Assembly (NCBI GenBank): GCA_041652555.1 | Contig: JBAZHE010000003.1 | Span: 4,096 to 68,095, forward strand | Reading direction: 5' to 3' | DNA length: 64,000 nt | Source of the DNA: Patescibacteria group bacterium | GTDB lineage: Bacteria; Patescibacteriota; Patescibacteriia; Patescibacteriales; WJLG01 | Shown: positions 2,466 to 62,205 of the stretch, one piece after another | Position numbering within the stretch: position 1 is the first letter of the stretch | How the letters are laid out: each line of letters opens with the position of its first letter | The notes under the pieces: model-generated | The model's database searches: none | Seen by the model: only the letters and a program-made list of their open reading frames with translations | Told to the model about the DNA's origin: nothing | Translations under genes and position numbers: made by a program

Positions 2466-2479
2466 AAAGGAGTATTAAA

Positions 2480-21538: not shown

Positions 21539-21777
21539 TTAGAATAAAAATAATAGAAAATGCTGGAAATCATTTTGCTCAACGATTTTTAAAAAATTGT
21601 TTTGGTGGTGATGAAGCAGTAGCATACCTCGCATCCCAAAAAGCACATTGGCTTGAAAATCACGAAAGGGAAATTGGATTTCTCACTAAAGAATTCGGGG
21701 ATTTAAAAATATCGATTGGAGATGATTATGAGTTGTTTGATTCCGAATACACCGATTTATTTGAGGTTGTTGAATGA
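21535..21777 (+). CDS. hypothetical protein (80 aa)
   Basis: ORF track; ATGA overlaps at both ends. Confidence 0.5.
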   Translation: MIRIKIIENAGNHFAQRFLKNCFGGDEAVAYLASQKAHWLENHEREIGFLTKEFGDLKISIGDDYELFDSEYTDLFEVVE

Positions 21778-23330
21778 TTATCCAAGGCGACGCTTTAACA
21801 GTTTTGAAAAGGATGGATAGTGAGTCAGTGCATTGTGCGGTAACGTCAAGTCCATATTATGGATTGCGTTCGTACAATACCGAACCACAAATATGGGATG
21901 GAGATCCAAACTGCCAACATGAATGGGGGGAAGTTCATCCACCGGGATATAGATCATCTGATACAAAACCGGGTCCAATGCAACATGAAGGGAATACGCA
22001 CCGTGAGAATTTGCGAAGTGATATTTGTTCAAAGTGTGGAGCGTGGAAAGGTGAACTGGGACAAGAGCCTACACCTGAATTGTTTGTTAAACACCTAACA
22101 ACTATCTTTCATGAATTAAAAAGGATTTTAAGAAGCGACGGTGTTTTCTGGATGAATATTGGGGATAGTTATTGTGCTTCTAAATGCGGATCGTTCAACG
22201 GTGGATCAGATATTCTTAAAGGAAGAAATCTTGAAGGTCACTCTAAATCCGGGAATGTAGATAAGTCAAAACTTATGGGAATGAAACCCAAAGACCTTAT
22301 TGGTATCCCGTGGGCTTTAGCATTTTCTATGCGCTCCGATGGTGCCTCATCACCACAGACAATGTATACAGTAGAAAAAATCAAAACTTCGTTGCTTCGA
22401 GATTATGATACTTGGAATGACGTTCCAAAACATACTAAAAGAACAATTGAAGATTTGGATGAAGAGTGGTTAAAAGCAAGTAAGGGGGGTTGGTATCTCC
22501 GTTCTGATATTCCTTGGGTAAAAAGAAATTCACTTCCATCATCTGTAACAGATCGCCCCGGCTCTTCCATTGAACACATATTCTTATTCTCAAAATCACA
22601 GAAATATTACTATGACTACATAGCAACAATGCAACTTTCATCAGAATCTTACAACAAAGATAAAAGACCGCGCGGTGTTATTCGTCAATGCGTAAACACA
22701 AACTCCAAGTATCCAGATGGGGGGCAATTTAAAAAGCAAGATAACACAGGGAATGAAACTTACACAGGATTTAACGCTCGCTATGAACCTAATGGTTATG
22801 GCCTTCGTTACATGCGGGATTCCGATTTCTTCTTCAAGACATGGCAAGGACTTCTTCACAATGAAGATGGTGAACCAATGGCTCTTGTGGTAAATCCGAA
22901 ACCGTATAAAGGTTCACATTTTGCCGCATATCCGATAAGGCTTGTAGAACCCCTAATTCTCGCGGGAACATCAGAAAAAGGCGTTTGCCCACATTGTGGA
23001 GCGCCGTGGGTTAGAGTTGCGAAAAAAGAATCATATATAACTCGCCCCACCATTGGTTCTGATGATCAGAAGCAAAAACTCAATCCCGGTAATGCGCAGG
23101 GATTAGAACGCACTGGTGGTCATGTTGCTCAAATTACTGAAACCATAGATTGGCAACCATCTTGTAATTGCACAAATAACATACCAGTTCCCGCCACAAT
23201 TCTCGATCCCTTCTCCGGCTCATCAGCAACCGGTGTCGCTTGTAAACTCCATAATCGTGATTATATTGGTATAGAACTCAATCCTGAATATTGTGAACTT
23301 GGAAGAAAACGTATTCGTGAAGGCAAATAA
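21774..23330 (+). CDS. N4-cytosine / N6-adenine DNA methyltransferase (beta class), large insertion
   Basis: Motif IV VTSSPYYGLRSY near N-terminus, motif I ILDPFSGSSATGVA near C-terminus; no adjacent nuclease. Confidence 0.85.
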   Translation: MIIQGDALTVLKRMDSESVHCAVTSSPYYGLRSYNTEPQIWDGDPNCQHEWGEVHPPGYRSSDTKPGPMQHEGNTHRENLRSDICSKCGAWKGELGQEPTPELFVKHLTTIFHELKRILRSDGVFWMNIGDSYCASKCGSFNGGSDILKGRNLEGHSKSGNVDKSKLMGMKPKDLIGIPWALAFSMRSDGASSPQTMYTVEKIKTSLLRDYDTWNDVPKHTKRTIEDLDEEWLKASKGGWYLRSDIPWVKRNSLPSSVTDRPGSSIEHIFLFSKSQKYYYDYIATMQLSSESYNKDKRPRGVIRQCVNTNSKYPDGGQFKKQDNTGNETYTGFNARYEPNGYGLRYMRDSDFFFKTWQGLLHNEDGEPMALVVNPKPYKGSHFAAYPIRLVEPLILAGTSEKGVCPHCGAPWVRVAKKESYITRPTIGSDDQKQKLNPGNAQGLERTGGHVAQITETIDWQPSCNCTNNIPVPATILDPFSGSSATGVACKLHNRDYIGIELNPEYCELGRKRIREGK

Positions 23331-23342
23331 CCCACCACAACC

Positions 23343-23359
23343 TTTTTATATTAACGCGT
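23343..23359 (+). promoter_or_regulatory. TATA-like box plus ACGCGT element for leaderless glycosyltransferase unit
   Basis: tttttatatta-acgcgt, ATG 23376 follows 17 nt later without RBS. Confidence 0.5.
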
Positions 23360-23375
23360 CCTATCTTATTACAAT

Positions 23376-24164
23376 ATGCCTCCTCTCGTTTCTGTTATCA
23401 TTCCAACTCACAACCGCAACCTATCTTTAAAACGAGCAATCCAAAGTGTCCTAGATCAGACTTTTACAGATTATGAAATTATTGTTGTAGATGACACATG
23501 GGCAACCAACGAAATTTCCGATAATTATCCAAATGTCCATTTTCTTCATATACCTACAACATCATATCCAGCCATATCCAGAAACATGGGCATTAAAGTT
23601 TCAAATGGAAAATACATTGCCTTTTTAGATGATGATGATGTTTGGTATCCAGAAAAATTAGCATCGCAGATATCAAGATTATTAATAGACCCAAAATTAG
23701 GATTGGTTTGCAGTAACGGGAACATAGGAAAAGATTTATATATTAAAAGAAATATTACAAATGAACCCGACATGCTTCCACAGGAAATAATAGGGGATTT
23801 CGTTGTAACATCGTCATGTGTAATTCGCAGAAGTTTATTGGAAAAAACAGGTCTATACAACCTGCTCCCACTTTGTGAAGACTATGATTTCTCAATAAGA
23901 TTTGTAGCAACAACACAAATTTATTACGACCCGACACCTTTGTTTGAATATACTATTTCAGAAAATAGTATACAAAAACGAAGTAACTATTCCTTTGTTG
24001 CTTATCACCAAAACGTTATAAAAGTAATGGAAAATTTACGAGAATTTTTAAAAAGGAACAATCTGGAAAAACCAGAAACATCGTTTTTAATTCATTATAG
24101 AATTCTCGATGAAAAAATAATGGTAATGTGGAATATAGTTAAAGATTTTATTAGAGGATATTAA
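23376..24164 (+). CDS. family 2 glycosyltransferase
   Basis: VSVIIPTHNR...IIVVDD...AFLDDDDVW. Confidence 0.85.
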   Translation: MPPLVSVIIPTHNRNLSLKRAIQSVLDQTFTDYEIIVVDDTWATNEISDNYPNVHFLHIPTTSYPAISRNMGIKVSNGKYIAFLDDDDVWYPEKLASQISRLLIDPKLGLVCSNGNIGKDLYIKRNITNEPDMLPQEIIGDFVVTSSCVIRRSLLEKTGLYNLLPLCEDYDFSIRFVATTQIYYDPTPLFEYTISENSIQKRSNYSFVAYHQNVIKVMENLREFLKRNNLEKPETSFLIHYRILDEKIMVMWNIVKDFIRGY

Positions 24165-25157
24165 ATGACAAAAATCTTTTTCGCCGGAGATATGCGCAGT
24201 CCTTTTATACAAGGAGATGCAGAACTTTTAAAGGAAGATCACGATGTTTTTATTTTTAACACCCCGATCAAAAAAATGGATTTTCCGCTTTATCTATTTA
24301 AATGTTTTCAACAAGTTTTAAATATTAGAAAATCAAATCTCGTCTGGGTTTGGTTTGCAGATTGCCCGGCACTACCATTAGTTATTATTGCAAAAATATT
24401 TAATATACCCACAGCTGTGAATGTCGGTGGATTTGAAGTTTCTGGAATATCTGAAATTAATTATGGAAATCAACTTAAACCAATCCGTGGATATGTTTCA
24501 AGATGGATTATAAGAAATGCAACAGAAATTATTGTTCCTTCCCCCGTATACAATGTTAAAACATTAAAAGTTGGTATAGGAATAAAATTGATGGATAATA
24601 CATTTGCATTGCCCGAAGACGATTATTATTTTGAAAATTATTACTTAACCCACACAATGGCTCATATAATCACAATTCCGAATTGGGTTGATACGGAAAC
24701 TTGTGATATACCACTTCCACAAAAAGAAGATCTTGCTGTAACCGCCGTGTGTTCGAAACATGCGTATGCTTATAAAGGAATTTCAATATTTCAAGAAGCA
24801 TCAAAAAATATTCTTTATAACACAAAAATATTAGAACATCTCCCACGAAAAGAATACGAGGACTATTTGAAACGCGCCAAAGTCTATTGCCAACTTTCAC
24901 GCGATGAAACATTTGGTATCTCACTTGTAGAGGCAATGGCATATGGTTGTGTGCCTGTTGTTAGCGATAAAGGTGCTTTGCCGTGGATTGTAGAAGACAC
25001 GGGTATTATCGTGCCTTATGGAGATGTTACAGCAACTATTAATGCAATTAATAAAGCAATGACTATGGACGGTTCAAAAGCGCGTGAGCGCGCACGTTAT
25101 TTCAGCCGTGAAAGAAAACAAGAATCGGTGAAACAACTCATCAAGGAATTAATATGA
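24165..25157 (+). CDS. GT-B (GT1/GT4-like) glycosyltransferase
   Basis: C-terminal ETFGISLVEAMAYGCVPVVSD (EX7E region). Confidence 0.75.
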   Translation: MTKIFFAGDMRSPFIQGDAELLKEDHDVFIFNTPIKKMDFPLYLFKCFQQVLNIRKSNLVWVWFADCPALPLVIIAKIFNIPTAVNVGGFEVSGISEINYGNQLKPIRGYVSRWIIRNATEIIVPSPVYNVKTLKVGIGIKLMDNTFALPEDDYYFENYYLTHTMAHIITIPNWVDTETCDIPLPQKEDLAVTAVCSKHAYAYKGISIFQEASKNILYNTKILEHLPRKEYEDYLKRAKVYCQLSRDETFGISLVEAMAYGCVPVVSDKGALPWIVEDTGIIVPYGDVTATINAINKAMTMDGSKARERARYFSRERKQESVKQLIKELI

Positions 25158-26326
25158 CACGTATTCTTATACTCGGAGACTACCCACTACCCAATGAAAC
25201 AATAACCGGCGGAATAATGCGGTCAGTTTATTTAACTGCCAATGCATTATCAAAATTGTGCCCAGAATATGACTTTCACGTATTGACAATCACGGATGGA
25301 ATTGATAAATCTTTTGTGTCAATCAACAAAAATCTTGCAATCCATTATATCCATTTTCCTTTAAGAAACAAACCAATCTTGGTTCCAAAATTCCTTTCCA
25401 AGCAATTGATATTGCATGAAATAAATAAAATAAAACCAGATTTAATCCACGCCAATGGTTCAAGCTGGGAATATGGATACCCAGCAATTGCATATAAAAA
25501 ATGTCCTGTTCTTATAACTGTTCACGGAGTGTCACACAATGAATCAAAATATTGGTCTGGTCTAAAAGGCGCGTGGCATCGTATAAGTTGTTGTAAAATG
25601 GAATCACACATCTTTGAAAAAATGGAAAACGTTGTTGCCGTTTCTTATTATGTAGAAAGAGAAATGAGAAAATGCATATCGAAAACACAATATGGAAACT
25701 ATGCGATACATGTAGATGTCATTTCCAACCCGGTTGATCCATGTTTTATGGATGTTACAACAAAATACACAATACCAAATCTATTATTATATGTTGGGGG
25801 GATTGAAAAACGAAAAGGATTAGACGTTCTTATCCGATCACTTTATATAGTTAAAAAACAAATGCCTTATATAAAATTGAATGTCGTTGGTTCGATACGA
25901 AGTCCTATATATTGCGCAGATATAATGAAACTCATTTCCGATTTGGATTTAATTGACAATGTGAATTTTGTTGGAAAAGTAAGCGATACATTATTAATGA
26001 AAGAATATTCTAATGCATCAATATATATTTCACCTTCATATGAAGAATCAGAGGGTATAACCATTCTTGAAGCGATGGCTACAGGAACACCAGTAATAGC
26101 AACCCGGTCGGGCGGTTCGGAAAGTATAATAAAAGATGGTGTTGATGGATTGTTGGTAAAAAACGGAAACCACGAAGAACTAGCATTTAAGATTTTAATT
26201 TGTGGTGATGCATTAAAAGAGCAACTTGGAAAAGGAGGGAGGGAAACAGCATTGAAATATTTACCGGAGAATATTGCGAAACAGTATATGGAAGTTTACA
26301 GGAGGTTGTTGAAATGCCAAAACTAA
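25154..26326 (+). CDS. family 4 glycosyltransferase
   Basis: SYEESEGITILEAMATGTPVIATRSGG; ATGA overlap. Confidence 0.85.
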   Translation: MTRILILGDYPLPNETITGGIMRSVYLTANALSKLCPEYDFHVLTITDGIDKSFVSINKNLAIHYIHFPLRNKPILVPKFLSKQLILHEINKIKPDLIHANGSSWEYGYPAIAYKKCPVLITVHGVSHNESKYWSGLKGAWHRISCCKMESHIFEKMENVVAVSYYVEREMRKCISKTQYGNYAIHVDVISNPVDPCFMDVTTKYTIPNLLLYVGGIEKRKGLDVLIRSLYIVKKQMPYIKLNVVGSIRSPIYCADIMKLISDLDLIDNVNFVGKVSDTLLMKEYSNASIYISPSYEESEGITILEAMATGTPVIATRSGGSESIIKDGVDGLLVKNGNHEELAFKILICGDALKEQLGKGGRETALKYLPENIAKQYMEVYRRLLKCQN

Positions 26327-26958: not shown

Positions 26959-27143
26959 AAGATGGTTATAAATTAACAATATTTTTAAGTGTTATAGTAA
27001 TAATATTGGCAATATTTATACATGGCACAGTTATTCATTTAACACAAGTGGGTGAATTTCAAAAATGTGTAAATGCAACACTTTCTGATCCACTCTATTC
27101 CACATTTGCATGTGATAGACCGGGATGGTGGTTTGGAATATGA
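26955..27143 (+). CDS. small membrane protein (62 aa)
   Basis: ORF track; one TM helix; AAGGAGG RBS. Confidence 0.5.
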   Translation: MKDGYKLTIFLSVIVIILAIFIHGTVIHLTQVGEFQKCVNATLSDPLYSTFACDRPGWWFGI

Positions 27144-29617
27144 AAATCCTTTTTATCTTACCTAGATTTAATAAAGGTTTCGGAACTGTCTACAATGAAA
27201 ACGAAACCGGTATTGACTATGATTACTTAATGCCCGTGGGAATGCCCTACATCGCTTCTTATCTCAAACACAATGGATGTGATGTCTCGGCATTAAACCT
27301 TAATCACACACCCGGATTGGTTAAAAACATTGTACAAAAAACTATTACTGACACTCACTATGATTTCGTATTCACCGGCACAATTTCCATAATGTATCCC
27401 GCTGTGCGCGATATAATAAAATATGTACACGAAGCATCTCCCAATACAATAACCGTCTGTGGTGGAGGTATCATTTCGTCTAACCCCGAACTAATGATGA
27501 AACTTATTAATCCACATTACGGGATTATTTTTGAGGGTGAAGAAACAGCATTAGAGTTGATACAAACTATTGAGAAGGGGCAATCTGTGGAAAATGTTAA
27601 AGGTATTATTTATTCAACAACATGGCCTATTCCAACGTTTACTAAAACACAACCACGCCCCCAAATCAAAAACCTAGATGCACTCCCGTTTCCCGATCTT
27701 GAACTATTCGGTTATTCCGAATACTTGAAACACCAAGAACTTGGCGGTTGGAATCAATATCCACGAGATTATCCACCGCGCCCGTATATGTTGGTTTCAG
27801 CGCGCGGTTGTTCGGCAAATTGTTTATCAGGAGACACTTTAATTGCAACCACAAATGGCAACATTAAAATAAAAGATCTCGTTGGGCAGACCCCAAAAGT
27901 TCTTACACGAGATCCAATTACAAAAGATGTATTATATGCACAGTCCTCAATAGTTGCTAAAACCGGAGAAAATAAAAATCTCGTTAGAGTTTCATTTAAA
28001 GAGGGGGGATATATTGACTGTACACCAGATCACAAATTTGTAAAATTTTTAAACTCAAACCAATATGTCCCGTTGAGAGAGTATGAAACGGAAGCACAAT
28101 TTTTGAGACCCGGTGATAGTGTTCGTGCTGTTCATTATAAATTGAGCACCACTGGTTACACGATTATAATATGGGGAAGGAAAAAGCATCGATATCAGCA
28201 CACTTTAATAATGGAATCTATGATTGGAAGGAAACTCTCACAATACGAAAGGGTTCATCACAATGATCATAATCAAATAAATAATGTTGAAAAAAATTTA
28301 ACACTTACCGACAATCATAAACATATCCCAACTTACCATCCAGAACTATCACAACGTATGAAAGATAATAATCCCGCAAAAAATCTACCACACGAATTTT
28401 TTGTGCAACGCGGAAAAGAACAACGTGGTAAAGTTCGCTCTATAGAATCCAGAATGAATTATAAAGCATCCAAAACGGGGAATAAAAATCCGATGTGGAA
28501 AGGTGGTTGTGGAAGAACAACAAAATCCCGTATACCCGGGCAACCAGATGTAAATCACGTAGTTAAAAGCGTTGAACCACTAGATGGGTTACATAATACG
28601 TATTGTTTAGAAGTGCCGGGATATAATTGGTTCTATGCCAACGACGTTCTTGTTCATAATTGCACATTTTGCTACCACACAACCGGCCCAAAATACCGCT
28701 ACCGTTCCGCAGAAAATATAATGTCAGAAATCAAATACGTTGTTGAAAAATACCACATTAACTTCTTCACATTTCTTGACGAATTGTTTTCATACGATAA
28801 AGCGCGCGCACTTGAATTCTGCCGACAATTTAAAGAATATCAGAAAACCATTCCGTGGCGAATTGAAATGTATTGCAATCTGCGCGTTGATTGCGCGGAC
28901 GCAGAACTTCTTGATGCCATGAAATCCTGTGGGAATGTAGTTATCGGATTAGGTCTCGAAAGTTACAACCAAAAAGTTCTCGATTCAATGCGAAAACACA
29001 TAACACCCGCGCAGATTGAAACCACGCTTGGAATGATCGCAGAAAGAAATCTTGTTCCGCAAGGGGGGTTCATCTTTGGAGATAATGCAGAAACACTTTC
29101 CACCGCACGCACTACTTTACAATTCATTCGAGAACACCCACATCTTTCACGAGGTGGTTTATTTATGGGCTTTATTATTCCGTTTCCCGGGACCGCTATT
29201 TATAAACATGCTTTACAAAATGGAATCATAAAAGATGAAATAGAATTTATTAATAAATTGACAAGCACGGATTATAATTATGATAACGTATGTAATCTCA
29301 CAAATTTATCAGATGAAGATTTTGACACGTTGAAAAATGAAGTGTTCACTTTAAAATACACAGCAATTCCCGTATCTGTTCCAACAAAAATAACCAATGA
29401 TGAAATCTTTGTAAAATGCCCCCATTGTGGGAAGATGCAAACTTATAAAACAACTAAACGACCACATGCGCAATTCAGCGTGGGGGTAATTTGTAATAAC
29501 CCCGAATGTAATGGAAGATTTGAAATGGGCACACGATATATTCAATTGGGGAGACTCGCTGTAAAGTTATTGGGATTTAAAAGAATGCGACGGATTAAAA
29601 ATTGGATGGGGATTTGA
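27140..29617 (+). CDS. B12-binding-domain radical SAM enzyme, intein-containing
   Basis: N-terminal Rossmann-like B12 domain (KILFILP.., VCGGG), radical SAM motif C-SAN-[intein]-C-TF-C, C-terminal Cys-rich zinc ribbon; ATGA start at 27140. Confidence 0.8.
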   Translation: MKILFILPRFNKGFGTVYNENETGIDYDYLMPVGMPYIASYLKHNGCDVSALNLNHTPGLVKNIVQKTITDTHYDFVFTGTISIMYPAVRDIIKYVHEASPNTITVCGGGIISSNPELMMKLINPHYGIIFEGEETALELIQTIEKGQSVENVKGIIYSTTWPIPTFTKTQPRPQIKNLDALPFPDLELFGYSEYLKHQELGGWNQYPRDYPPRPYMLVSARGCSANCLSGDTLIATTNGNIKIKDLVGQTPKVLTRDPITKDVLYAQSSIVAKTGENKNLVRVSFKEGGYIDCTPDHKFVKFLNSNQYVPLREYETEAQFLRPGDSVRAVHYKLSTTGYTIIIWGRKKHRYQHTLIMESMIGRKLSQYERVHHNDHNQINNVEKNLTLTDNHKHIPTYHPELSQRMKDNNPAKNLPHEFFVQRGKEQRGKVRSIESRMNYKASKTGNKNPMWKGGCGRTTKSRIPGQPDVNHVVKSVEPLDGLHNTYCLEVPGYNWFYANDVLVHNCTFCYHTTGPKYRYRSAENIMSEIKYVVEKYHINFFTFLDELFSYDKARALEFCRQFKEYQKTIPWRIEMYCNLRVDCADAELLDAMKSCGNVVIGLGLESYNQKVLDSMRKHITPAQIETTLGMIAERNLVPQGGFIFGDNAETLSTARTTLQFIREHPHLSRGGLFMGFIIPFPGTAIYKHALQNGIIKDEIEFINKLTSTDYNYDNVCNLTNLSDEDFDTLKNEVFTLKYTAIPVSVPTKITNDEIFVKCPHCGKMQTYKTTKRPHAQFSVGVICNNPECNGRFEMGTRYIQLGRLAVKLLGFKRMRRIKNWMGI
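27821..28660 (+). mobile_element. intein with HNH endonuclease domain (280 aa) inside the radical SAM CxxxCxxC motif
   Basis: Starts CLSGDTLIATTNG, block B TPDHKF, ends NDVLVHN + Cys; internal HRYQH..VHHNDHNQINN..NL..H HNH signature. Confidence 0.85.
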
Positions 29618-29950: not shown

Positions 29951-30325
29951 ATGGAAGAATTTATAGAATTTTGGCCCATGGTTAAATGTTTAATATTTCC
30001 ACATATTATGGGAATATTATTTGGAATATTCGTTGGAATCTCGATATATATATTATTGTTTTCAAAAAAATATATATCCTTTTTATATAATTGGAATAAT
30101 GTAATAAAAATCGCTCCATTTTTAATAATATCACTTATGGGAGGAATATTAGGAATATTAAAAATTATAGAATTTGCAAGTGAAACGCAACCTATTTATC
30201 ATATGTGGGCATATATAATGGGATGTCAAATGATAATCATTTCTTATGGAATGATAACCGGATTTGGTTGTGGTGGAGCGATTGGATATTTTATTAATAA
30301 ATTCATGGATAAATTGGAGGATTAA
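29951..30325 (+). CDS. polytopic membrane protein (124 aa)
   Basis: ORF track; GAAGGAGAGG RBS; four hydrophobic helices. Confidence 0.55.
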   Translation: MEEFIEFWPMVKCLIFPHIMGILFGIFVGISIYILLFSKKYISFLYNWNNVIKIAPFLIISLMGGILGILKIIEFASETQPIYHMWAYIMGCQMIIISYGMITGFGCGGAIGYFINKFMDKLED

Positions 30326-30326
30326 A

Positions 30327-31196
30327 ATGAACCGCGTATTTTGGAACCCAATAGTAAAACCAACACCACTATATTTTGAATTGTTGCGAGAATTTAATTG
30401 CAAAAAATATAATGACAATCTTCCACTCGTAAGTATTGTCATTCCTGCTTATAATTCTGGAAAATACATCGGAGAATGCCTACAATCCGTTATCAACCAA
30501 ACTTACACAAACTGGGAATGTTTTATTGTTCTCGCACCATGCACAGATAATACATTGGATGAAATATGGAAATGCATTAATGTAGATGATCCAAATCCAA
30601 AAATCCGTATTATACGGGAAGATAAAAAATCTAATTGTGCGACCGCGCGCAATAAGGGGTTTAATGAATGTTCTGGTAAATATGTTACTTTCCTAGATGC
30701 TGATGATTGGTGGGAACCACAAAACTTGGAAAGAATGGTTATGGCAATGGAAAACTATATCAATTCAGATTTGGATTGGTGTGTGCATTGCCAAAAAATG
30801 CATAAAGATAATAAGGAACAAATTATTATGGAGATGCCCGGTACACACAACGAGATTGGGGGAATTGGAGGAATATTATTTAAAAAAGAAACATTAGATA
30901 AAATAAAATCTGAATATGGGTATGTGTTTGATGAATCTTTAAAACACACTGATGATGGAGATTTGTCTTTGCGTTTGCGAAAATATAAAGGTAGATTATT
31001 CCCAGAAGTTTTATCTCACTATCGTTGGAACGAAAGCGGGTTGACTGCAACAACGGGCAATATTAATCAATCGTGGGGCATTGTAAAAATTCTTATTAAA
31101 AGGGGTGCGTGGGATTTGCTGCCGTATCATTTGAAGAATTTGGGAGTTTGTATCGTTGAAGAAGTAACGGGGTTTGATTTGGTGAGGAAGAGATGA
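30327..31196 (+). CDS. family 2 glycosyltransferase
   Basis: VSIVIPAYNSGKYIGECLQSVINQTY..FLDADDWW; start at ATG 30327 behind GGAGG. Confidence 0.85.
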   Translation: MNRVFWNPIVKPTPLYFELLREFNCKKYNDNLPLVSIVIPAYNSGKYIGECLQSVINQTYTNWECFIVLAPCTDNTLDEIWKCINVDDPNPKIRIIREDKKSNCATARNKGFNECSGKYVTFLDADDWWEPQNLERMVMAMENYINSDLDWCVHCQKMHKDNKEQIIMEMPGTHNEIGGIGGILFKKETLDKIKSEYGYVFDESLKHTDDGDLSLRLRKYKGRLFPEVLSHYRWNESGLTATTGNINQSWGIVKILIKRGAWDLLPYHLKNLGVCIVEEVTGFDLVRKR

Positions 31197-44178: not shown

Positions 44179-44960
44179 TCCTCTTTCTTTACACTTCCAC
44201 CCGGAATATACTTCTCAAATTCCGTGTAATCCAGTGGCATTTCATCGGGCATATTACGGTAACGTTTCTTTGCTACATAGCCTGCTGTTGGAGCAACATG
44301 CAAGACGCGCTGTCCTGTTGACACGGCAATATTTCTGGTCTTGTCAAAACCTGCTTTTTCACTACGAGTCAGAGTTGTGAGCGAACAGAACCCCACCACG
44401 TCGCCCCATTCAACAATTTTAGCAGCCGCAAGTTTCTGGAGTTTGAGCGTGTTCTTGTCGTATGCGGAACACAGGGGATCTTCAATCTTGACCACGGCAG
44501 AATGCGCAACCAGAATAACCATCATTCCCTTTGTATCGCGCAGATATGTCAAGGCATCAAGAAAATCCTGCCACTCAGTCATGCATTCAACATAACCGCG
44601 CCCGTAACCCGGGTCTTCGATAGACTTTGCGTTGAGACGTTTGCACGTAGCCTTCCATACAAGGGGTTGGAACCAATCGAGCGTATCTATAACCACGGTC
44701 TTGTAATCATGATCGGTCGTGGCAAGGATCTGAATACAATCCATCACCTCTTCATAGGAACGCGCTGCGCGGGGTTTGCCATTTTCATCCTGTGGGATCG
44801 CAGTGGCGTCAATGTCTCCCAATCCATCTTCAGTAAGAATTAAAATGGAGTCTTTTGCCATAGACCCGAAAGTAGATTTGCCAATTCCTTCAGGTCCATA
44901 GATAACAACCAATGGGATTTTAGGAGCGTTCTTCTTTGAAATTTTGTTTAAATCAATCAC
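44175..44960 (-). CDS. RecA-fold ATPase, AAA_24 / Sak4-like recombinase candidate (GTG start)
   Basis: Walker A YGPEGIGKST, Walker B VVIDTLD; AAGGAG RBS; typical phage pairing with DUF669. Confidence 0.75.
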   Translation of the reverse strand: MIDLNKISKKNAPKIPLVVIYGPEGIGKSTFGSMAKDSILILTEDGLGDIDATAIPQDENGKPRAARSYEEVMDCIQILATTDHDYKTVVIDTLDWFQPLVWKATCKRLNAKSIEDPGYGRGYVECMTEWQDFLDALTYLRDTKGMMVILVAHSAVVKIEDPLCSAYDKNTLKLQKLAAAKIVEWGDVVGFCSLTTLTRSEKAGFDKTRNIAVSTGQRVLHVAPTAGYVAKKRYRNMPDEMPLDYTEFEKYIPGGSVKKEE

Positions 44961-45075
44961 AATAGATCTCCTTTCGTTTTGTTCGTTTGTCGTTTCATGT
45001 TACGGTCGGGGCAGCATATGCCCAAATCGCGTATCTATGTAGGACGCGTTAGTATAAATAGTTATGGTTGGAAGA

Positions 45076-45258
45076 TTAAAAACCAAGTCCACCATAACTA
45101 TTTGAAACCATAGTTAAATATTGACCAAATTGAAAAACACGTGGAACTAAAAAACCAAACACAAAAATAAGTAAAAACGTGGTAATCAAAATAGTTATAA
45201 TGTCGGTCTTACTAAAAACATCTGCAAATGTTACCGTTTCCTTTTCTTCTTTAATCAT
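45076..45258 (-). CDS. small membrane protein (60 aa)
   Basis: ORF track. Confidence 0.45.
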   Translation of the reverse strand: MIKEEKETVTFADVFSKTDIITILITTFLLIFVFGFLVPRVFQFGQYLTMVSNSYGGLGF

Positions 45259-45440
45259 ATTTTATTATCCACAATTTTTTGAATGCTCGGGAAATCTGAT
45301 AATTTGATGGATTCTGTGAATCTTATATTAATCCCAGTAATTTGATCATCTTGAGAATTTACCACAAGAGAACTTCTTAATTCTCTAACCGACGCAAATT
45401 TTATTACAAGATTAATTGTATCTTTTGTATCTCCATTCAT
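45255..45440 (-). CDS. hypothetical protein (61 aa)
   Basis: ORF track; ATGA overlap. Confidence 0.45.
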   Translation of the reverse strand: MNGDTKDTINLVIKFASVRELRSSLVVNSQDDQITGINIRFTESIKLSDFPSIQKIVDNKI

Positions 45441-45447
45441 AATTAAT

Positions 45448-45816
45448 TCAGCCCACCGGATAACCTGCGTTCACGCATTCTGATAGCCACGCGGGGCGAT
45501 TGCCAATATTATTGTTATCAAATGGCACGTAGCACGTCTCAACCCACTGCGCTTTAACCAACTCTTCTAATAAATCATTTTGTTTAGTCAGAGCGTTTAA
45601 AACGATCTGGTCTTGTGTGGGGCACATTGAGAGGTGGGATCGCCCATCCGTGGAGTTTAAACCAATGTCGGTCCAAGTCCAGCTGTCATTGCTTCCCCCG
45701 ATATACCATTTTTCTGACGAAGCGGGCTGTATTGAATTCTGCACTTTTGATTCATCTCCCATTACAGGAGTAATGCATAGAAGGAGGAGAAGGATTATCA
45801 AGAATTTTGTTTTCAT
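45448..45816 (-). CDS. secreted hypothetical protein
   Basis: ORF track trimmed to MKTKFLIILLLLLCITPV (signal peptide) ATG 45816, preceded by minus-strand tatatatcc and ACGCGT. Confidence 0.5.
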   Translation of the reverse strand: MKTKFLIILLLLLCITPVMGDESKVQNSIQPASSEKWYIGGSNDSWTWTDIGLNSTDGRSHLSMCPTQDQIVLNALTKQNDLLEELVKAQWVETCYVPFDNNNIGNRPAWLSECVNAGYPVG

Positions 45817-45856
45817 AATAGTGTTATACGCGTTTATTGGATATATAGTTTTCATA

Positions 45857-46960
45857 TCATTTCCCCGACTTCGTTCTATTATGGTGCATACAAAGCATCT
45901 GACAATTATCTTCTACCGATTTTCCACCTTTTACCCACGGAACAATATGATCCGCTTCCATCTCTTCAAACTCATAATGTTTAGAGGGATCACATATAGG
46001 GCATATACCTTTTTGTCTTTCATATACTTTTGTTGTGATTTTTTCATCAAAGGTTCGTAAGTTTAAAGACGACTGATCTTTTTCTCCACTCAACAGGAAT
46101 TTATAAATACCTTTTTTATTTCCCACTTCATCGTCATCCATAAGTTCTTTGATGCGATCTTCCATAATAGAGGGGGTGTATTTAAAATCCTTATATTTAT
46201 TATAGAATATACCCCATTCTAACCCTTTCATTTCTTTTCTATAATTTGAAAATATTGCTTTCACCCAATTAATAACCCCTTGGAAATATAACCACATTTC
46301 ATTGGCATTAGTATCATGCTGGTGGATTGACATATAGTCTTCTATCCCAATACCGTCTCTTTCAGAAATCCATTTTATAGCGGTTTCCAAATAATCTTGT
46401 CTTATAGACGAACCCACCAAATATTTACTTGCAATATCGTGAGCAGGGCACATATTTTTTGAAAAATATTTTTTAGCGTCAGAAAGCCACTCTCCCGTAT
46501 AAGTGGCATTCCGCAATTCTTGATCAGTGAGTTTGATACCTGCTATATTTATAATTTTAAACCAATCTAACTTCTCCTTATCATTGCCTTGACAAATATA
46601 AATCATCAATTTATAATTTAATATTTGTTCCTTTTCCACATCTGTGAGATTGTGAAAAAACATACAATCTACTGAAAAATCACCATTAATATATTGGCAA
46701 ATACTCACTGTTCTTTGCTGACCATCAAGCAATTCATATGTGCCATTATTATTAACTACCCAATACATAATATTTAATGGGAACCCTTTAACAATTGTTT
46801 TAATAACTTCGTTTCTTTGATTAACATTATAAACAAATTCTCTTTGAAATGGTGGGCGAATATTTAGTTTACCATTATATCCAAATGCCCCATTTTCAAC
46901 ATCATCCACATATCCTTCTGATATTTCTTTAATAGGTATTTCTTTTAGTATTATTTTCAT
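45857..46960 (-). CDS. DUF262 (ParB-like NTPase) - HNH nuclease fusion
   Basis: N-terminal PPFQREFVYN and LLDGQQR; C-terminal CPICD..EADHIVPWVKGG..NCQMLCMHHNRTK. Confidence 0.8.
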   Translation of the reverse strand: MKIILKEIPIKEISEGYVDDVENGAFGYNGKLNIRPPFQREFVYNVNQRNEVIKTIVKGFPLNIMYWVVNNNGTYELLDGQQRTVSICQYINGDFSVDCMFFHNLTDVEKEQILNYKLMIYICQGNDKEKLDWFKIINIAGIKLTDQELRNATYTGEWLSDAKKYFSKNMCPAHDIASKYLVGSSIRQDYLETAIKWISERDGIGIEDYMSIHQHDTNANEMWLYFQGVINWVKAIFSNYRKEMKGLEWGIFYNKYKDFKYTPSIMEDRIKELMDDDEVGNKKGIYKFLLSGEKDQSSLNLRTFDEKITTKVYERQKGICPICDPSKHYEFEEMEADHIVPWVKGGKSVEDNCQMLCMHHNRTKSGK

Positions 46961-47881
46961 CTACTTCACCTTTCTTTTTATAACGATGCGAGCATAAACT
47001 TTTTTTCCATTTATATATGGATACCCATAATTAAATTCATCAATCTTTGTGGTTGTCATACATCCAATAATCTCAAACTGATCTGGGTTATATTTATCAA
47101 TAAATGTAATTGGAACACCGAACTCGCCAAAATAATCTATTGGTATATCTTTAATCTTATTCACATTAATAGCATCATAATTGTCATATTCGGGATACTC
47201 TACATCATTATATTTTTTATAAAGAATCAATTCTTCGCATCTCTTCTTTATTTCGAGATTTGTAAACCAATAAGTATTACCCATACCACGATATTTAATC
47301 CCATTTTCTTCTCTACATCCATTACTATTTAATTCATAATAATTAGGCACTATATATTCTTTATATCCATTATTATACCCAACCCATATTTTATTCTCTT
47401 TAAGCAGGGGGAAAATTTCTTTATAAGTAATAGCATTCAAACTCCCAATAATCAAAAACCTCTTTTCATATTCCATCAACTGCGCTACATATTCACGGAA
47501 TAAAGAAAATGGTGGGTTGGTAACAACAATATCGGATTCTTTCAATAACTCGATACATTGCGGGCTTCTAAAATCACCGTTTTCTTCCAAATTTGTTTCT
47601 TTAAAGTCCACGCCGTCGTATTCTAGTTTATATGTGGGTTTCAATGAATCATAATGTGTCGATATTAATTTCTTCAACCCAAGATATTTAAACTTTAAAC
47701 AAAAATAACCCGTGAAGTTACTTTCTCTCGGATCATCACAATTGCAGAAAACGGTCTTCCCTTTGAAATATTCTTTATAATGTTTTAATTCCTTTTCTAT
47801 ATCGGACATTTGTGTGTAAAACTCATCCTGCTTATCTTTCTTTGCTTTGTTAAGTTGGCAGTTCTTTGAAGTTGTAGTCAT
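46961..47881 (-). CDS. adenine-specific DNA methyltransferase (EcoRI-methylase-like)
   Basis: DEFYTQ near N-terminus, motif IV VVTNPPFSLF; stop abuts start of the DUF262-HNH gene. Confidence 0.75.
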   Translation of the reverse strand: MTTTSKNCQLNKAKKDKQDEFYTQMSDIEKELKHYKEYFKGKTVFCNCDDPRESNFTGYFCLKFKYLGLKKLISTHYDSLKPTYKLEYDGVDFKETNLEENGDFRSPQCIELLKESDIVVTNPPFSLFREYVAQLMEYEKRFLIIGSLNAITYKEIFPLLKENKIWVGYNNGYKEYIVPNYYELNSNGCREENGIKYRGMGNTYWFTNLEIKKRCEELILYKKYNDVEYPEYDNYDAINVNKIKDIPIDYFGEFGVPITFIDKYNPDQFEIIGCMTTTKIDEFNYGYPYINGKKVYARIVIKRKVK

Positions 47882-47924
47882 TTTTAATCACAACACTATA
47901 TGCGTCCATCGTAGATATAATTTT

Positions 47925-48506
47925 CTATGTTGCTCCGGATTCACCATGTTCAAAACGCGCAGAACGGGCTTTGTATGCGGCATCTTTAGTTAACACTTCA
48001 AATGTGTCTTGTTTAAAGTATTCCCACTGTTCGTCGTCCGGATGATATAGTGAAACAACATTTGAGTTTGTATCCCATTCAGAAACAAATACAATTCTAT
48101 CTTCTCTTCCCGTTCTAACTTGTAATCCCACCCAATCCCCATCTACTCCAAATATACATTCGTCATCATATGAACCACCGCCGCTATCACAAGAGTCCCA
48201 CCCATAAAACCAACCAATATAATTCCAAGGCGATCCACGCATCAACACAATCGCATTGTTTATTTTGCTAGAAAACTCACTATATAAACCACTTCCTTTA
48301 TCGCTATCGGGTTTGATCTCAACAAAAACTTTAATTTCTGGTAACCAAAAATCCGGCAAATACCATTTTCCATTAATATCATAACCTTCGATTTCATATT
48401 CCCATTTTATACCAAGAACATCAAAGTAGACAGCATATCGGGCTTCTAATCTTGACCTAAAATTGCATCCTTTATACTTGGTTTGTATTGGCTTTATTTC
48501 AGTCAT
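47925..48506 (-). CDS. PD-(D/E)xK (restriction-endonuclease-fold) nuclease
   Basis: FRSRLEARYAVYFD..WEYE...YLPDFWL..VFVEIKP. Confidence 0.65.
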   Translation of the reverse strand: MTEIKPIQTKYKGCNFRSRLEARYAVYFDVLGIKWEYEIEGYDINGKWYLPDFWLPEIKVFVEIKPDSDKGSGLYSEFSSKINNAIVLMRGSPWNYIGWFYGWDSCDSGGGSYDDECIFGVDGDWVGLQVRTGREDRIVFVSEWDTNSNVVSLYHPDDEQWEYFKQDTFEVLTKDAAYKARSARFEHGESGAT

Positions 48507-48599
48507 GCATATATGTAAGTTCTCATACTATTTATACTTATCTAAACAATTTTTATCAAATGGATACAATTAAATACTAGAAGCACCTACATTGTTTAC

Positions 48600-48779
48600 A
48601 TGTTGACACTGGAAGAAATTGTTACTATTTTACAAGACCGGAACTTAAGCGAAGTCAGTAGAAGAACAGGACTTGCAATACCAACGGTTTGGAGAATAGC
48701 AAATAATCAGGCGGGTAATGTTGGATATGAAACAGTGAAACGCCTCTCCGACTACTTAGAAAAGAAACCCGGTGAGTGA
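48600..48779 (+). CDS. small helix-turn-helix DNA-binding protein (59 aa)
   Basis: Not in track; LSEVSRRTGLAIPTVWRIANN fits an HTH; overlaps GTG start of the primase gene. Confidence 0.5.
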   Translation: MLTLEEIVTILQDRNLSEVSRRTGLAIPTVWRIANNQAGNVGYETVKRLSDYLEKKPGE

Positions 48780-51133
48780 TATCTTTGGAAAACACATTGT
48801 TCATTCCGCGCGCGCTTGAAAACAGAGTTAAACTCATTAAGTTAAAACAGAAATCCAAAATTCCCGACCAAGATACTTGGAGTGTCGAAAATAGCTTCTT
48901 CCCGAATGATACAGAAATCATAGATCATGTATCTTCGGGAAAAAATTATGGTATAATCCCAATCAACAATACGATAGTAATTGATTGTGATACCGAAGAA
49001 TTATATTCGACAATCGGGGGACATTGGAAAAAAACACTTACTGTGATTACTGGGAGAAGTGGAGTTATCGGAAGACATTTGTTTTTCGATTGCCCCGACT
49101 CCCCAAAAGATAAAATATTAATAAATGATCCAAATAACCCAAAAATACAACTCGGGGATATAAGGGGCAGCGAATCGCCATTTTATACAGTTGGCGCTGG
49201 AAGCATTCATCCAGATACCGAAAGAAAATATAAATATAAAGACCCGAATGCTTCTTTGATTTCTATATCTTGGAAAGATATTCAATCTGAATTGCTCGAC
49301 AAATTCAAATTAAAAATCAAAGAAGAAATACCAGTCAAAACAAAAAACATTGCACAAAACCCGTTGACGAATAAACTAAATTTGCGAATAGAAAATTTCG
49401 CTATGCCAACCGGTAAAATCGAAAGGCGCGCAAATGGAGATATACAAGGCACGCATCCAATACATGGTTCCACTACAAAAATGAATTTTGCTATAAATTC
49501 GAATAAGAATGTCTTTCATTGTTATCGTCACGACGTTGGTGGCGACCCGATATCTTGGATAGCGTATGCACATTGTGGTGTTCCAGAAGAAGATTGTAAT
49601 AAATTAACAGATGATCAATTTAAAGAAGTTGTTGAATGGTTACGTGACAATGGTTTTGAAAAGGAACTTAAAGAACTAGACGAAAAATATTCACCAAACT
49701 TAAATGTAGAAATAATAGATGAAAGATCTATAAATAATATTATAAATCAAAAACCCCCTACTAAAACCACAACTACAAACAATCCACCAATTGTTGGTAA
49801 CACAATCGACATGGAAATAAAAGCTGCAAATGACAGATGTAAACTTCCAAATTTTCCCGAAATTGACGAAGGGTTATTTAAAGAATATATAGAATTAGGT
49901 AAACGAGTGTCATATTCTTTGCACGAATTTCACTTTGCGGCATTGCTTTCAATTGCATCAATGGCTATAAAAAGAAGAGTTCTTATACAAGTAGGGATGA
50001 CAAAAATTTATACTAATGTATTTGCAATGGTGGTCGGTCATACAACAATTAGTGGAAAGTCCGTAGCATGTAATATGGCCATCGATTCATTTTCCCAAGC
50101 AATCATCCATGAAGAAAACTTAAATAAATTACAATCAACCAATCTTCTCCGTGGGACAATAAGCGAACCCGCACTTATTCAAGGATTGGATGAAACATAT
50201 AATTCCCTTTGGTATTACGATGATTGCGCTGGATTTTTTGAAGATGCTGGTAATTGGAATGCACATGTTCTTGGAACATTATGCAGTTTATATGATTGCA
50301 CTGCAATTGAAAGAACGCTTTCAAAACGCGGAAAAAACGGGGAGAAATATAAATGGGAATGCCCAACACCATTTATGTCTATATTATTCAATACAACGAA
50401 TAAAGATATTGAAACTGTCGCAAGCGCACGGTTGTTTTCATCCGGATTTTTCCCACGATTAATGTGGTTTTATGGTCAGGGTGGAACACCGAGGAAGAAC
50501 GAAAATGTATCTGAAAGCGATAAGAAGATTACCAACAATGTGTTTAAAGAGATTGTTGGGTTAAGAACAAAACTTGAAATATATCCAGATGATGGTATTA
50601 TATTTGGGGTATGCAACGAAATAGAAGATTGGAAACTTAACTCAACGCTTGGAAAACTTGGTGTTGAAGACGAATCATATAGAACATCAATTTCAAGAGG
50701 GTTTATACATGCGTATAAAATTGCAGTGATCCTTACTATGGTCGATAAAGAATTCCAAAGAAAAAATATACCGGAAAGGTTAAAAAAACTTGAACCCGGT
50801 GAAATATATCAACCAATAGTGCTAACAATTCCCCATAAACACGCAATGATGGCAATAAAGATAGTAAACGATTATCTTATACCACGTATGATGTATGTAT
50901 ACGATCTATGCAATAATTCGGATATGAAAAACCACCAAGTGATTGTAAGAAAGGCTATAATTGGATTTGGGGGTTCCGTGGAAAGAACCAAACTTTTAAA
51001 GAAGACGCATCTTAACAGCAAAGACCTTAATACTGCATTGAATACTATGGTAGAATCTGGAGAAATAAAGATGTATGAGAATAAAAAGACTGGTAGCGAT
51101 AAACCAACAACATTTGTTATCTTAAATGATTAG
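48776..51133 (+). CDS. primase-polymerase (AEP) fused to a P-loop helicase-like domain
   Basis: AEP motifs VIDCDTEE, GRSGVIGRHLFF, GSIHPDT; zinc-finger-like FHCYRHDVGGDPISW; Walker A GHTTISGKS. Confidence 0.8.
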   Translation: MISLENTLFIPRALENRVKLIKLKQKSKIPDQDTWSVENSFFPNDTEIIDHVSSGKNYGIIPINNTIVIDCDTEELYSTIGGHWKKTLTVITGRSGVIGRHLFFDCPDSPKDKILINDPNNPKIQLGDIRGSESPFYTVGAGSIHPDTERKYKYKDPNASLISISWKDIQSELLDKFKLKIKEEIPVKTKNIAQNPLTNKLNLRIENFAMPTGKIERRANGDIQGTHPIHGSTTKMNFAINSNKNVFHCYRHDVGGDPISWIAYAHCGVPEEDCNKLTDDQFKEVVEWLRDNGFEKELKELDEKYSPNLNVEIIDERSINNIINQKPPTKTTTTNNPPIVGNTIDMEIKAANDRCKLPNFPEIDEGLFKEYIELGKRVSYSLHEFHFAALLSIASMAIKRRVLIQVGMTKIYTNVFAMVVGHTTISGKSVACNMAIDSFSQAIIHEENLNKLQSTNLLRGTISEPALIQGLDETYNSLWYYDDCAGFFEDAGNWNAHVLGTLCSLYDCTAIERTLSKRGKNGEKYKWECPTPFMSILFNTTNKDIETVASARLFSSGFFPRLMWFYGQGGTPRKNENVSESDKKITNNVFKEIVGLRTKLEIYPDDGIIFGVCNEIEDWKLNSTLGKLGVEDESYRTSISRGFIHAYKIAVILTMVDKEFQRKNIPERLKKLEPGEIYQPIVLTIPHKHAMMAIKIVNDYLIPRMMYVYDLCNNSDMKNHQVIVRKAIIGFGGSVERTKLLKKTHLNSKDLNTALNTMVESGEIKMYENKKTGSDKPTTFVILND

Positions 51134-61098: not shown

Positions 61099-62205
61099 TT
61101 AAAACTTGGGTGAATTTTCCACCCAAGTTATTCTTCTATTCATCAAAAAATTCCAAATATATCCGATTACTATTCCTATAGCATTTCCTATTAAATAGTT
61201 TATTCCTACGAATGTTAGTGCCACCAAAACAGTAACATTTATTATCATTGATCCAATACAGATTGAATTATAACTAAACATTCTGTGAAGGAATGATTTT
61301 TGGCATTTTGCTCCTTTAAATGTAAAATTATCATTCATTAAAAAATTTGTTATAATACTTATTTCTATCGCTAGGAAACTTGCAAAAACCAAAGGCGTAT
61401 TAAAAACTTCTTTGAACACGGACAAACAAATCATATTTGTTGCCACTCCGATAAGACCAACGATCCCAAATTTTACCATCTTTCTTAATTCTTCTCTTCC
61501 ACGTCCGGGGAACAATGCATTATCAATAAATTGTTTTGCGAATTGAATAATTGTGGATTTCTTTAATTTGCTTTCACCCACTTTTCTGTTTGTGAAAACA
61601 TACGGTAATTCTTTCACTATAGTCCAATGGCATTTTGAAAGAATCTCCAATAAGATTTTATATCCACACCGTGGGTTTAATGAAGGTGTGTGCATTATTA
61701 AATCCTTTTTTGCTCCGAAGAATCCGGAAATTGGATCGGTAATTTTCGGGAAAAGGAGGCGACCGAGGAATGTTGCCCCGAAAGAAATAACACGACGTTT
61801 TAAAGGCCAGTCTTTGATACCACCATTTGGCATATATCTTGACCCAATTGCGATATCTACATTATTGTTTTTTATTTCATTGAACATTGCAGGAATAATT
61901 TCTATTGAGTGCGATAAATCTGCGTCCGTCACTACCACCACGTTTCCGCGCGCTTTATTTATTCCGGCAATAACAGATTGGGAAAGTCCCGGATCTTTTG
62001 TGCGCGTTATTAAAACCACGGGATACTTCCTAATGATAAGATCGGTAACAATAAGTTGTGTCTTATCCGTGGAAGAATCATCGACAACGATTATTTCAAA
62101 AGTTATAGTGGTGAGACGAAGAGTATGAGAAATTTTTTGTATTGTGTTTTGAATGTTTTCTTCTTCGTTGTAAGTGGGGATGATTATAGAAAGAGATGGA
62201 CGCAT
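61099..62205 (-). CDS. polyprenyl-phosphate glycosyltransferase (GT2, Dpm1/GtrB-like) fused to GtrA-like domain
   Basis: LSIIIPTYNEEENI, IIVVDDSSTDKT, VVVTDADLSH; C-terminal four-helix GtrA-type region KFGIVGLIGVATN...NFLMNDNFTF...NFLMNRRITW. Confidence 0.85.
   Translation of the reverse strand: MRPSLSIIIPTYNEEENIQNTIQKISHTLRLTTITFEIIVVDDSSTDKTQLIVTDLIIRKYPVVLITRTKDPGLSQSVIAGINKARGNVVVVTDADLSHSIEIIPAMFNEIKNNNVDIAIGSRYMPNGGIKDWPLKRRVISFGATFLGRLLFPKITDPISGFFGAKKDLIMHTPSLNPRCGYKILLEILSKCHWTIVKELPYVFTNRKVGESKLKKSTIIQFAKQFIDNALFPGRGREELRKMVKFGIVGLIGVATNMICLSVFKEVFNTPLVFASFLAIEISIITNFLMNDNFTFKGAKCQKSFLHRMFSYNSICIGSMIINVTVLVALTFVGINYLIGNAIGIVIGYIWNFLMNRRITWVENSPKF

What the first reader, a model, noticed from the sequence alone, without database searches (positions are those of the whole stretch)
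45857..48506. Virus-borne methyltransferase + DUF262-HNH nuclease (+ PD-(D/E)xK nuclease) cluster
An EcoRI-methylase-like adenine methyltransferase (DEFYT, NPPF) ends 1 nt before a DUF262 (FQREFVYN, DGQQR) protein fused to a C-terminal HNH. A restriction-fold nuclease sits 44 nt upstream. DUF262-nuclease fusions are the architecture of GmrSD/BrxU-type modification-dependent restriction enzymes. Coupling one to a methyltransferase looks like a self-contained restriction-modification or superinfection-exclusion system carried by the element. The specificity logic, methyl-protected versus methyl-directed, is unresolved.
Basis: partly seen in the sequence, partly recalled or inferred. Interest (0 to 1): 0.55.

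Follow-up and report, generated by a model that had tools for sequence, protein, structure and literature searches.

The report
Phage-borne BanLI-type restriction-modification cassette
A phage has picked up an ordinary two-gene restriction-modification cassette, an EcoRI-family adenine methylase plus a DUF262-HNH cutting enzyme, related to the already named BanLI system; the neighbouring third nuclease is not part of it.

Summary
All three minus-strand genes exist as described. Only two form a unit.

- **The pair.** The 306-aa EcoRI-family methyltransferase (46961-47881) abuts the 367-aa DUF262+HNH protein (45857-46960).
- **Co-conservation.** In 162 of 163 related loci from bacteria, archaea, plasmids and phages, the nuclease sits downstream of such a methylase on the same strand. 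The one exception is cut at a contig end.
- **Closest characterised system.** The nuclease is 50% identical over its full length to R.BanLI of Bifidobacterium animalis. The methylase is 50% identical to both M.BanLI and M.EcoRI. PADLOC calls the pair Type II REase plus MTase.
- **Direction of protection.** Published BanLI data point to methyl-protected restriction, not methyl-directed: methylation of RTC(6mA)GG, a 10-fold drop in phage plating, and better transformation after pre-methylation.
- **Third gene.** The upstream nuclease is T7-endonuclease-I-like. It travels with the phage recombination genes and is never linked to the pair.
- **Origin.** A close relative of this phage lacks the cassette at the same slot, and the cassette's GC is 31% against 35-41% in the flanks, so it is acquired cargo.

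Verdict: a new member of a known kind. Recognition site, NTP dependence and role in the phage remain untested.

The parts
46961..47881 (-). N6-adenine DNA methyltransferase, EcoRI family (306 aa); the modification component
   Evidence: PF13651, E 1.6e-121. PADLOC MTase_II PDLC03297, E 5.6e-117. 50% identical to M.EcoRI, E 4e-99, and to M.BanLI, E 7e-110. The NPPF catalytic motif is at residues 122-125.
45857..46960 (-). DUF262 (ParB/Srx-type NTPase) + helical middle + HNH endonuclease (367 aa); the restriction component, a homologue of R.BanLI
   Evidence: PADLOC REase_II PDLC03418, full length, E 1.1e-132. 50% identical over the full length to R.BanLI, E 5e-147. AF2 model pLDDT 80.5. Best PDB fold matches are BrxU, ParB CTPases and Gme HNH.
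46499..46861 (-). DUF262/GmrSD_N domain (residues 34-154) with invariant QR (39-40) and DGQQR (79-83)
   Evidence: The motif roles are taken from BrxU mutagenesis (PMC8565348).
45866..46003 (-). HNH domain (residues 320-365): C320 C323 ... D337 H338 ... N352 C353 C357 N361
   Evidence: PF01844, E 4e-9. Profile match to Gme HNH 4h9d and McrA 6ghc. These residues are invariant in 42 sequences.
46958..46963 (-). Gene junction TAG|ATG: the methylase stop abuts the nuclease start, with GGTGA 8 nt upstream, suggesting translational coupling
   Evidence: Sequence read. In 97 of 152 related loci the two genes overlap, abut or lie at most 30 nt apart, with modes at -4 and -11.
45857..47914 (-). Extent of the acquired cassette: no counterpart in the closest related phage contig, and low GC
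   Evidence: Nucleotide homology to L169 stops at window 47915 and resumes at 45585. L169 carries a SprT-like ORF in the slot instead. GC is 31.2% against 40.9% and 35.4% in the flanks.

Best explanation
This is a two-gene, BanLI-type Type II restriction-modification cassette carried as accessory cargo by a large phage.

The EcoRI-family enzyme methylates N6 of adenine in a short target sequence that is still unknown, on phage DNA and, during infection or lysogeny, on host DNA. The DUF262-HNH protein cuts DNA that lacks this mark, using its zinc-finger HNH site. Its ParB/Srx-type nucleotide-binding domain probably gates or licenses cutting through NTP binding and hydrolysis.

The methylase gene comes first and abuts the nuclease gene, so protection is made before or together with the nuclease. 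In a phage, the likely payoffs are exclusion of competing phages and plasmids, attack on unmodified host DNA, and selfish maintenance of the cassette.

Shown here: gene anatomy, homology, intact catalytic residues, co-conservation, co-evolution, and acquisition by insertion.

Inferred: methyl-protected logic (from BanLI and from the strict linkage), NTP dependence (from the invariant motifs and BrxU), and the biological role.
For: - **Classification.** PADLOC gives full-length Type II REase and MTase hits. The REase model is essentially R.BanLI: 905 bits over 1-372 of 372 positions.
- **The BanLI locus.** It was recovered with the four published primers, all exact. The nuclease is 50% identical to R.BanLI and the methylase 50% identical to M.BanLI.
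- **Published BanLI experiments (PMC3990576).** M.BanLI methylates RTC(6mA)GG. M plus R in E. coli lowers P1vir plating about 10-fold. Pre-methylation raises transformation 1.8-fold.
- **Linkage.** 162 of 163 loci carry an upstream same-strand methylase.
- **Co-evolution.** Pairwise identities of the two proteins correlate, r = 0.68, and 0 of 500 Mantel permutations reach that value.
- **Other carriers.** The pair also occurs on small plasmids and in the cultured Flavobacterium phage laban6-1 as gp07/gp08.
- **Catalytic residues.** They are invariant.
- **Acquisition.** The cassette is absent from the close relative L169, and its GC is low.
- **Maintenance.** An identical nuclease in the same gene context was found in four contigs from four different samples.
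Against: - No experiment exists for this cassette.
- The measured effects of BanLI are weak: 10-fold and 1.8-fold.
- The recognition sequence could not be inferred. Palindrome statistics were uninformative. The methylase is equidistant from a palindromic enzyme (M.EcoRI) and an asymmetric one-strand enzyme (M.BanLI).
- An invariant NTPase domain is unusual for a Type II enzyme, so the real mechanism may differ from simple site cutting.
- No paper was found that characterises the biochemistry of any DUF262-HNH restriction enzyme.
Confidence: 0.8

Rival explanations
1. Methyl-directed (Type IV-like) logic. The DUF262-HNH protein acts like GmrSD or BrxU and cuts modified DNA. The methylase serves another purpose, for example marking targets or evading host restriction.
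For: The N-terminal domain is DUF262, and the best fold match is BrxU. The characterised DUF262 nucleases GmrSD and BrxU are modification-dependent (PMC4619093, PMC8565348).
Against: A nuclease aimed at the product of its obligate neighbour would kill the carrier, yet the pair is stable in at least 162 loci across many phyla and on small plasmids. The nuclease domain is PF01844, not DUF1524. No solitary copies were seen. BanLI data run the other way: methylation protects. SspE shows that DUF262 nucleases can also act on unmodified DNA (PMC9646914 abstract).
Confidence: 0.05
2. The methylase is the functional part, protecting the phage from host BanLI- or EcoRI-like enzymes. The HNH protein is a selfish homing or mobility nuclease, or an inactive passenger.
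For: Phages often carry solitary protective methylases, and this window has a second one at 21774-23330. The window is rich in HNH/NUMOD homing-type genes. Some related loci have 2-4 methylase paralogues. R genes are disrupted on some plasmids.
Against: The nuclease is intact with all invariant residues. It co-evolves with the methylase. It is found mostly in cellular genomes and plasmids, not next to typical homing targets. An identical copy is kept across samples.
Confidence: 0.1
3. A three-gene system in which the upstream PD-(D/E)xK nuclease is a second restriction subunit.
For: It lies 43 nt upstream on the same strand and has a restriction-type fold.
Against: None of 163 pair-bearing loci has a homologue. 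It has no PADLOC hit. In L169 and L171 it sits with the same recombination genes (Sak4, SSB and Cas4-type exonuclease) but without the pair; L169 also has the HTH and prim-pol genes beside it. Its best named family is Holliday junction resolvase.
Confidence: 0.03

Closest known systems
[quoted passage not shown]
   Same: The gene order is M then R, with stop and start overlapping or abutting. The methylase is EcoRI-family, 50% identical. The nuclease is DUF262+HNH, 50% identical over its full length, with the same invariant residues.
   Different: This copy is on a phage, not beside a chromosomal integrase. The methylase is shorter (306 against 363 aa) and lacks most of the variable segment between residues about 75 and 100, so the target sequence is probably different. 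BanLI's site is RTCAGG, methylated on one strand.
EcoRI R-M system (E. coli ColE1-type plasmids)
   Same: The methylase is homologous over its full length (50%, E 4e-99). M.EcoRI nests inside the diversity of nuclease-linked methylases: it is 67% identical to the L039 methylase and ranks 85th of 141.
   Different: The restriction enzyme is unrelated, DUF262-HNH instead of the PD-(D/E)xK R.EcoRI. The gene order is reversed (R then M in EcoRI). GAATTC specificity is not established here.
GmrSD / BrxU / SspE (DUF262 + DUF1524 nucleases)
   Same: All have an N-terminal ParB/Srx-type DUF262 with QR and DGQQR motifs followed by a His-Me nuclease. BrxU is the best fold match.
   Different: This protein is much shorter (367 against about 560-590 aa). 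Its nuclease is a PF01844 Cys4 HNH, not DUF1524. It has an obligate methylase partner. The inferred target is unmodified rather than modified DNA.
Flavobacterium phage vB_FspS_laban6-1 gp07/gp08
   Same: A cultured phage with the same methylase-then-DUF262-HNH pair, overlapping by 4 nt.
   Different: It belongs to the 388-aa 'long' subfamily, 38% identical. The pair lies next to tail genes, not in a replication module. It is uncharacterised.

Membership tests
BanLI-type Type II R-M | Restriction protein homologous over its full length to R.BanLI (DUF262 + HNH) | tested here: met
   50% identity, E 5e-147. PDLC03418, E 1.1e-132 over 1-367. R.BanLI itself scores 905 bits on that model.
BanLI-type Type II R-M | EcoRI-family N6-adenine methyltransferase with the NPPF motif | tested here: met
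   PF13651, E 1.6e-121. 50% identical to M.BanLI. NPPF is at residues 122-125.
BanLI-type Type II R-M | Methylase immediately upstream of the nuclease on the same strand, conserved as a unit | tested here: met
   0-nt spacer here. 162 of 163 loci. Mirror-tree r = 0.68.
BanLI-type Type II R-M | Methylation by M protects DNA from R | not testable with these tools
   Only the published BanLI data bear on this. No data exist for this cassette.
BanLI-type Type II R-M | Defined recognition sequence | tested here: inconclusive
   Palindrome observed/expected ratios in the window and pooled loci show no specific signal. The methylase is equidistant from M.EcoRI and M.BanLI.
GmrSD/BrxU Type IV restriction enzymes | N-terminal DUF262 with DGQQR | tested here: met
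GmrSD/BrxU Type IV restriction enzymes | C-terminal DUF1524 (PF07510) nuclease | tested here: not met
   Pfam reports PF01844 and PF14279 only, with no DUF1524 at E <= 0.01.
GmrSD/BrxU Type IV restriction enzymes | Acts alone, without a cognate methyltransferase | tested here: not met
   A methylase lies upstream in 162 of 163 loci.
GmrSD/BrxU Type IV restriction enzymes | Cleavage depends on base modification | not testable with these tools
   Genomic context and the BanLI experiments argue against it.
EcoRI R-M system | R.EcoRI-type PD-(D/E)xK endonuclease next to the methylase | tested here: not met
   The partner is DUF262-HNH.
T7 endonuclease I-like junction resolvases (for ORF 47925-48506 only) | E...PD...ExK core and linkage to recombination genes | tested here: inconclusive
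   phrog_9019, E 1.8e-9. The PDB match to 1m0d is weak (E 0.19) with the motif aligned. It travels with the same recombination genes (Sak4, SSB and Cas4-type exonuclease) in L169 and L171.

The most novel reading that the evidence does not exclude
DUF262-HNH restriction enzymes may be a mechanistically distinct, NTP-gated class that REBASE files under Type II.

One methylase marks only one strand of an asymmetric site, as measured for BanLI. A ParB/Srx-type nucleotide switch would then provide the licensing, or the communication between sites, that keeps freshly replicated self DNA safe. That is the logic of Type III or MmeI-like enzymes, built from Type IV-style parts.

My survey shows that a single methylase is the normal state (155 of 163 loci). 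It is therefore not a decayed Type IIS system, as the BanLI authors proposed.
Probability: 0.25. Interest if true: 0.6.

Novelty: new member of a known kind. Interest (0 to 1): 0.3.

Why it matters
For this window, the result is mainly tidy annotation. The cluster is a standard, tool-detectable R-M cassette that a phage acquired. It is not a new defence architecture, and the third nuclease belongs to phage recombination.

The wider value is modest but real:
- The family is very large, with two subfamilies that each hit the 8000-candidate scoring cap of the homology searches, and it spans bacteria, archaea, plasmids and phages.
- Only one member has been characterised, and only weakly.
- It puts a nucleotide-switch domain known from modification-dependent enzymes into a methylation-blocked enzyme.
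- The classic M.EcoRI turns out to sit inside a methylase family that, in the loci sampled here, is typically partnered with this nuclease rather than with R.EcoRI.
- A cultured phage (laban6-1) and BanLI offer ready experimental handles.

Tried and rejected
- **Site avoidance.** I computed palindromic 4-mer and 6-mer observed/expected ratios in the window and pooled over 160 loci to guess the recognition site. GAATTC and AATT-core sites behave like other palindromes, so this was uninformative.
- **Promoter and terminator scan** of 44900-48900: counts equal the shuffled expectation.
- **PDB sequence search for the methylase:** no hit.
- **Literature searches** on DUF262, HNH, EcoRI, PF13651, PF03235 and REBASE found no biochemical study of a DUF262-HNH restriction enzyme. 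The BanLI lead came indirectly through PMC13091528.
- **Homology search from the B. choerinum fragment** did not surface B. animalis. A primer search in viral contigs found nothing. The primer search in metagenome contigs succeeded.
- **Three-gene system:** considered and rejected.
- **Antisense promoter as a conserved regulator:** considered and rejected, because it is not conserved.

Full report
**Observation.** The minus strand carries three consecutive ORFs: 47925-48506 (193 aa), 46961-47881 (306 aa) and 45857-46960 (367 aa).
- The 306-aa protein is a full-length EcoRI-family adenine methyltransferase (PF13651, E 1.6e-121). DEFYT lies at residues 19-23 and NPPF at 122-125.
- The 367-aa protein has DUF262/GmrSD_N (residues 34-154) and a PF01844 HNH domain (residues 320-365).
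- The methylase stop TAG abuts the nuclease ATG, and the first gene ends 43 nt before the methylase start.

The sequence-level observation is therefore correct.

**Setting.** The genes lie in a leftward operon with Sak4-like, DUF669 SSB and Cas4-type exonuclease genes. This operon diverges from an HTH regulator and a prim-pol primase. Elsewhere the window encodes a DNA polymerase, RNR, a helicase and homing-type nucleases. The same nuclease sequence occurs in the same context on a 139-kb contig and on shorter contigs from three further samples. The element is phage-like, although NCBI labels the contig as a Paceibacterota MAG.

**Which genes belong together.** I collected 163 loci that encode a relative of the DUF262-HNH protein:
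- 80 came from species-representative genomes spanning Clostridia, Treponema, Cyanobacteria, Bacteroidota, Proteobacteria, CPR bacteria and DPANN archaea.
- 80 came from IMG/VR.
- 3 are GenBank phage records.

An EcoRI-family methylase lies on the same strand in 162 of the 163 loci, upstream in all but one (L124, where it lies downstream). The one locus without a methylase is truncated 245 nt upstream of the nuclease. In 97 of 152 measurable loci the two genes overlap, abut or lie at most 30 nt apart. Pairwise identities of the two proteins correlate (r = 0.68), and 0 of 500 Mantel permutations reach that value. None of the 163 loci has a homologue of the 193-aa nuclease or of the downstream 135-aa ORF. 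The pair also sits on small plasmids of Enterococcus, Macrococcoides and others and in the cultured Flavobacterium phage laban6-1.

**The third gene.** The 193-aa protein matches a full-length phage family and 'Holliday junction resolvase'. It aligns weakly to T7 endonuclease I across the PD...ExK core. It has no PADLOC hit. In the related contigs L169 and L171 it accompanies the same recombination genes without the methylase-nuclease pair. It belongs to the phage recombination module.

**Acquisition.** L169 is a close relative, with 73-92% protein identity in prim-pol, HTH, the 193-aa nuclease, Sak4 and SSB. In the slot between the resolvase-like gene and the ORF135 homologue it carries a 116-aa SprT-like ORF. 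Nucleotide homology stops at window 47915 and resumes at 45585. Cassette GC is 31.2%, against 40.9% and 35.4% in the flanks. The pair is swapped-in cargo at a variable slot.

**What it is.**
- PADLOC scores the nuclease as Type II REase PDLC03418 over its full length (E 1.1e-132) and the methylase as MTase_II.
- A 2026 paper notes that REBASE's RTCAGG enzyme of B. animalis is annotated as a DUF262 protein. The original BanLI paper aligns M.BanLI with M.EcoRI.
- Using the four primers from that paper's Table S1, I recovered the locus from gut metagenome contigs, with all four primers matching exactly. It contains an integrase, banLI.M (363 aa) and banLI.R (372 aa, DUF262+HNH).
- R.BanLI scores 905 bits over all 372 positions of PDLC03418, so that model is essentially BanLI.
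- The window nuclease is 50% identical to R.BanLI over its full length (E 5e-147). The methylase is 50% identical to M.BanLI and to genuine M.EcoRI from ColE1-type plasmids.
- M.EcoRI falls inside the diversity of nuclease-linked methylases: it is 67% identical to one of them and ranks 85th of 141.

**How it most likely works.** Published BanLI experiments show three things. M.BanLI methylates one strand of RTC(6mA)GG. M+R in E. coli lowers P1vir plating about 10-fold. Pre-methylation improves transformation 1.8-fold. Methylation therefore protects. Together with the strict linkage and the methylase-first order, this supports classical methyl-protected restriction.

The nuclease has an intact HNH site: D337, H338, N352, N361 and a Cys4 zinc site, all invariant. 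It resembles Gme HNH and McrA. The DUF262 motifs QR and DGQQR are also invariant. In BrxU the equivalent residues bind and hydrolyse NTP, and hydrolysis is needed before DNA cleavage. The AF2 model (pLDDT 80.5) best matches BrxU and the ParB CTPases in the N-terminal part and Gme HNH at the C-terminus. NTP gating is therefore a reasonable inference, but it is untested.

**Open points.**
- The recognition site is unknown. Site-avoidance statistics were uninformative.
- The BanLI authors read the single methylase as a decayed Type IIS system. In my sample, however, 155 of 163 loci have one methylase and only 8 have two to four. One methylase is therefore the norm. This leaves room for a one-strand, NTP-licensed mechanism.

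**Verdict.** This is a new, phage-borne member of a known and tool-detectable R-M family. The Type IV analogy and the three-gene cluster are not supported.

Noticed in passing
window 46589-46617 (+): This is the only perfect sigma-70 consensus (TTGACA-17-TATAAT) in the 64-kb window. It lies antisense inside the nuclease gene and points into the methylase gene. 13 of 100 shuffles give at least one match anywhere in the window. It is not present at the equivalent place in other loci.
   Followed up: partly
L133 2194-7149 (also L127, L134, L135, L141, L150, L095, L019): Eight loci, seven from IMG/VR viral contigs and one from a Treponema genome, carry 2-4 tandem EcoRI-family methylase paralogues upstream of the nuclease. 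L133 (and the matching L134) also has an extra 330-aa ORF (L133 5002-5994) with no Pfam hit between methylase and nuclease.
   Followed up: partly
L164 (Enterococcus dispar pK205-4b-C) and L173 (Bifidobacterium choerinum pBC): Resistance genes have inserted into the cassette. optrA sits between the methylase and the nuclease. A cmx gene lies in the region that separates the methylase from a 272-aa C-terminal nuclease fragment, so the restriction gene appears split.
   Followed up: partly
L167 864-1844 compared with L039 and others: The classic M.EcoRI nests within the methylases that are partnered with DUF262-HNH nucleases, up to 67% identical. This suggests replacement of the restriction gene within one methylase family.
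   Followed up: partly
window 27125-29617 (+): An 830-aa B12-binding radical SAM protein is interrupted by an intein that carries an HNH endonuclease.
   Followed up: no
window 21774-26326, 30264-31196 and 61099-62205: There is a second DNA methyltransferase (PF01555; its match splits into two stretches across residues 19-404, so it may carry an insert) next to several glycosyltransferase genes. A PAPS-reductase/DUF3440 protein lies at 634-1839, and NUMOD3/HNH homing-type genes lie at 2441-3208 and 3908-4771. This may be a DNA or surface modification cluster.
   Followed up: no
whole window: GTAC (observed/expected 0.27), AGCT (0.25) and CATG (0.61) are strongly avoided. GAATTC is not (16 observed against 20 expected).
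   Followed up: partly
L169 1419-1769: In the closest relative, the slot that holds the R-M cassette here holds a 116-aa SprT-like HExxH protein instead. The position is a variable cargo site.
   Followed up: partly
source contig: NCBI labels the 139-kb source contig as a Candidatus Paceibacterota MAG, but its gene content is phage-like. This is probably a binning artefact.
   Followed up: no
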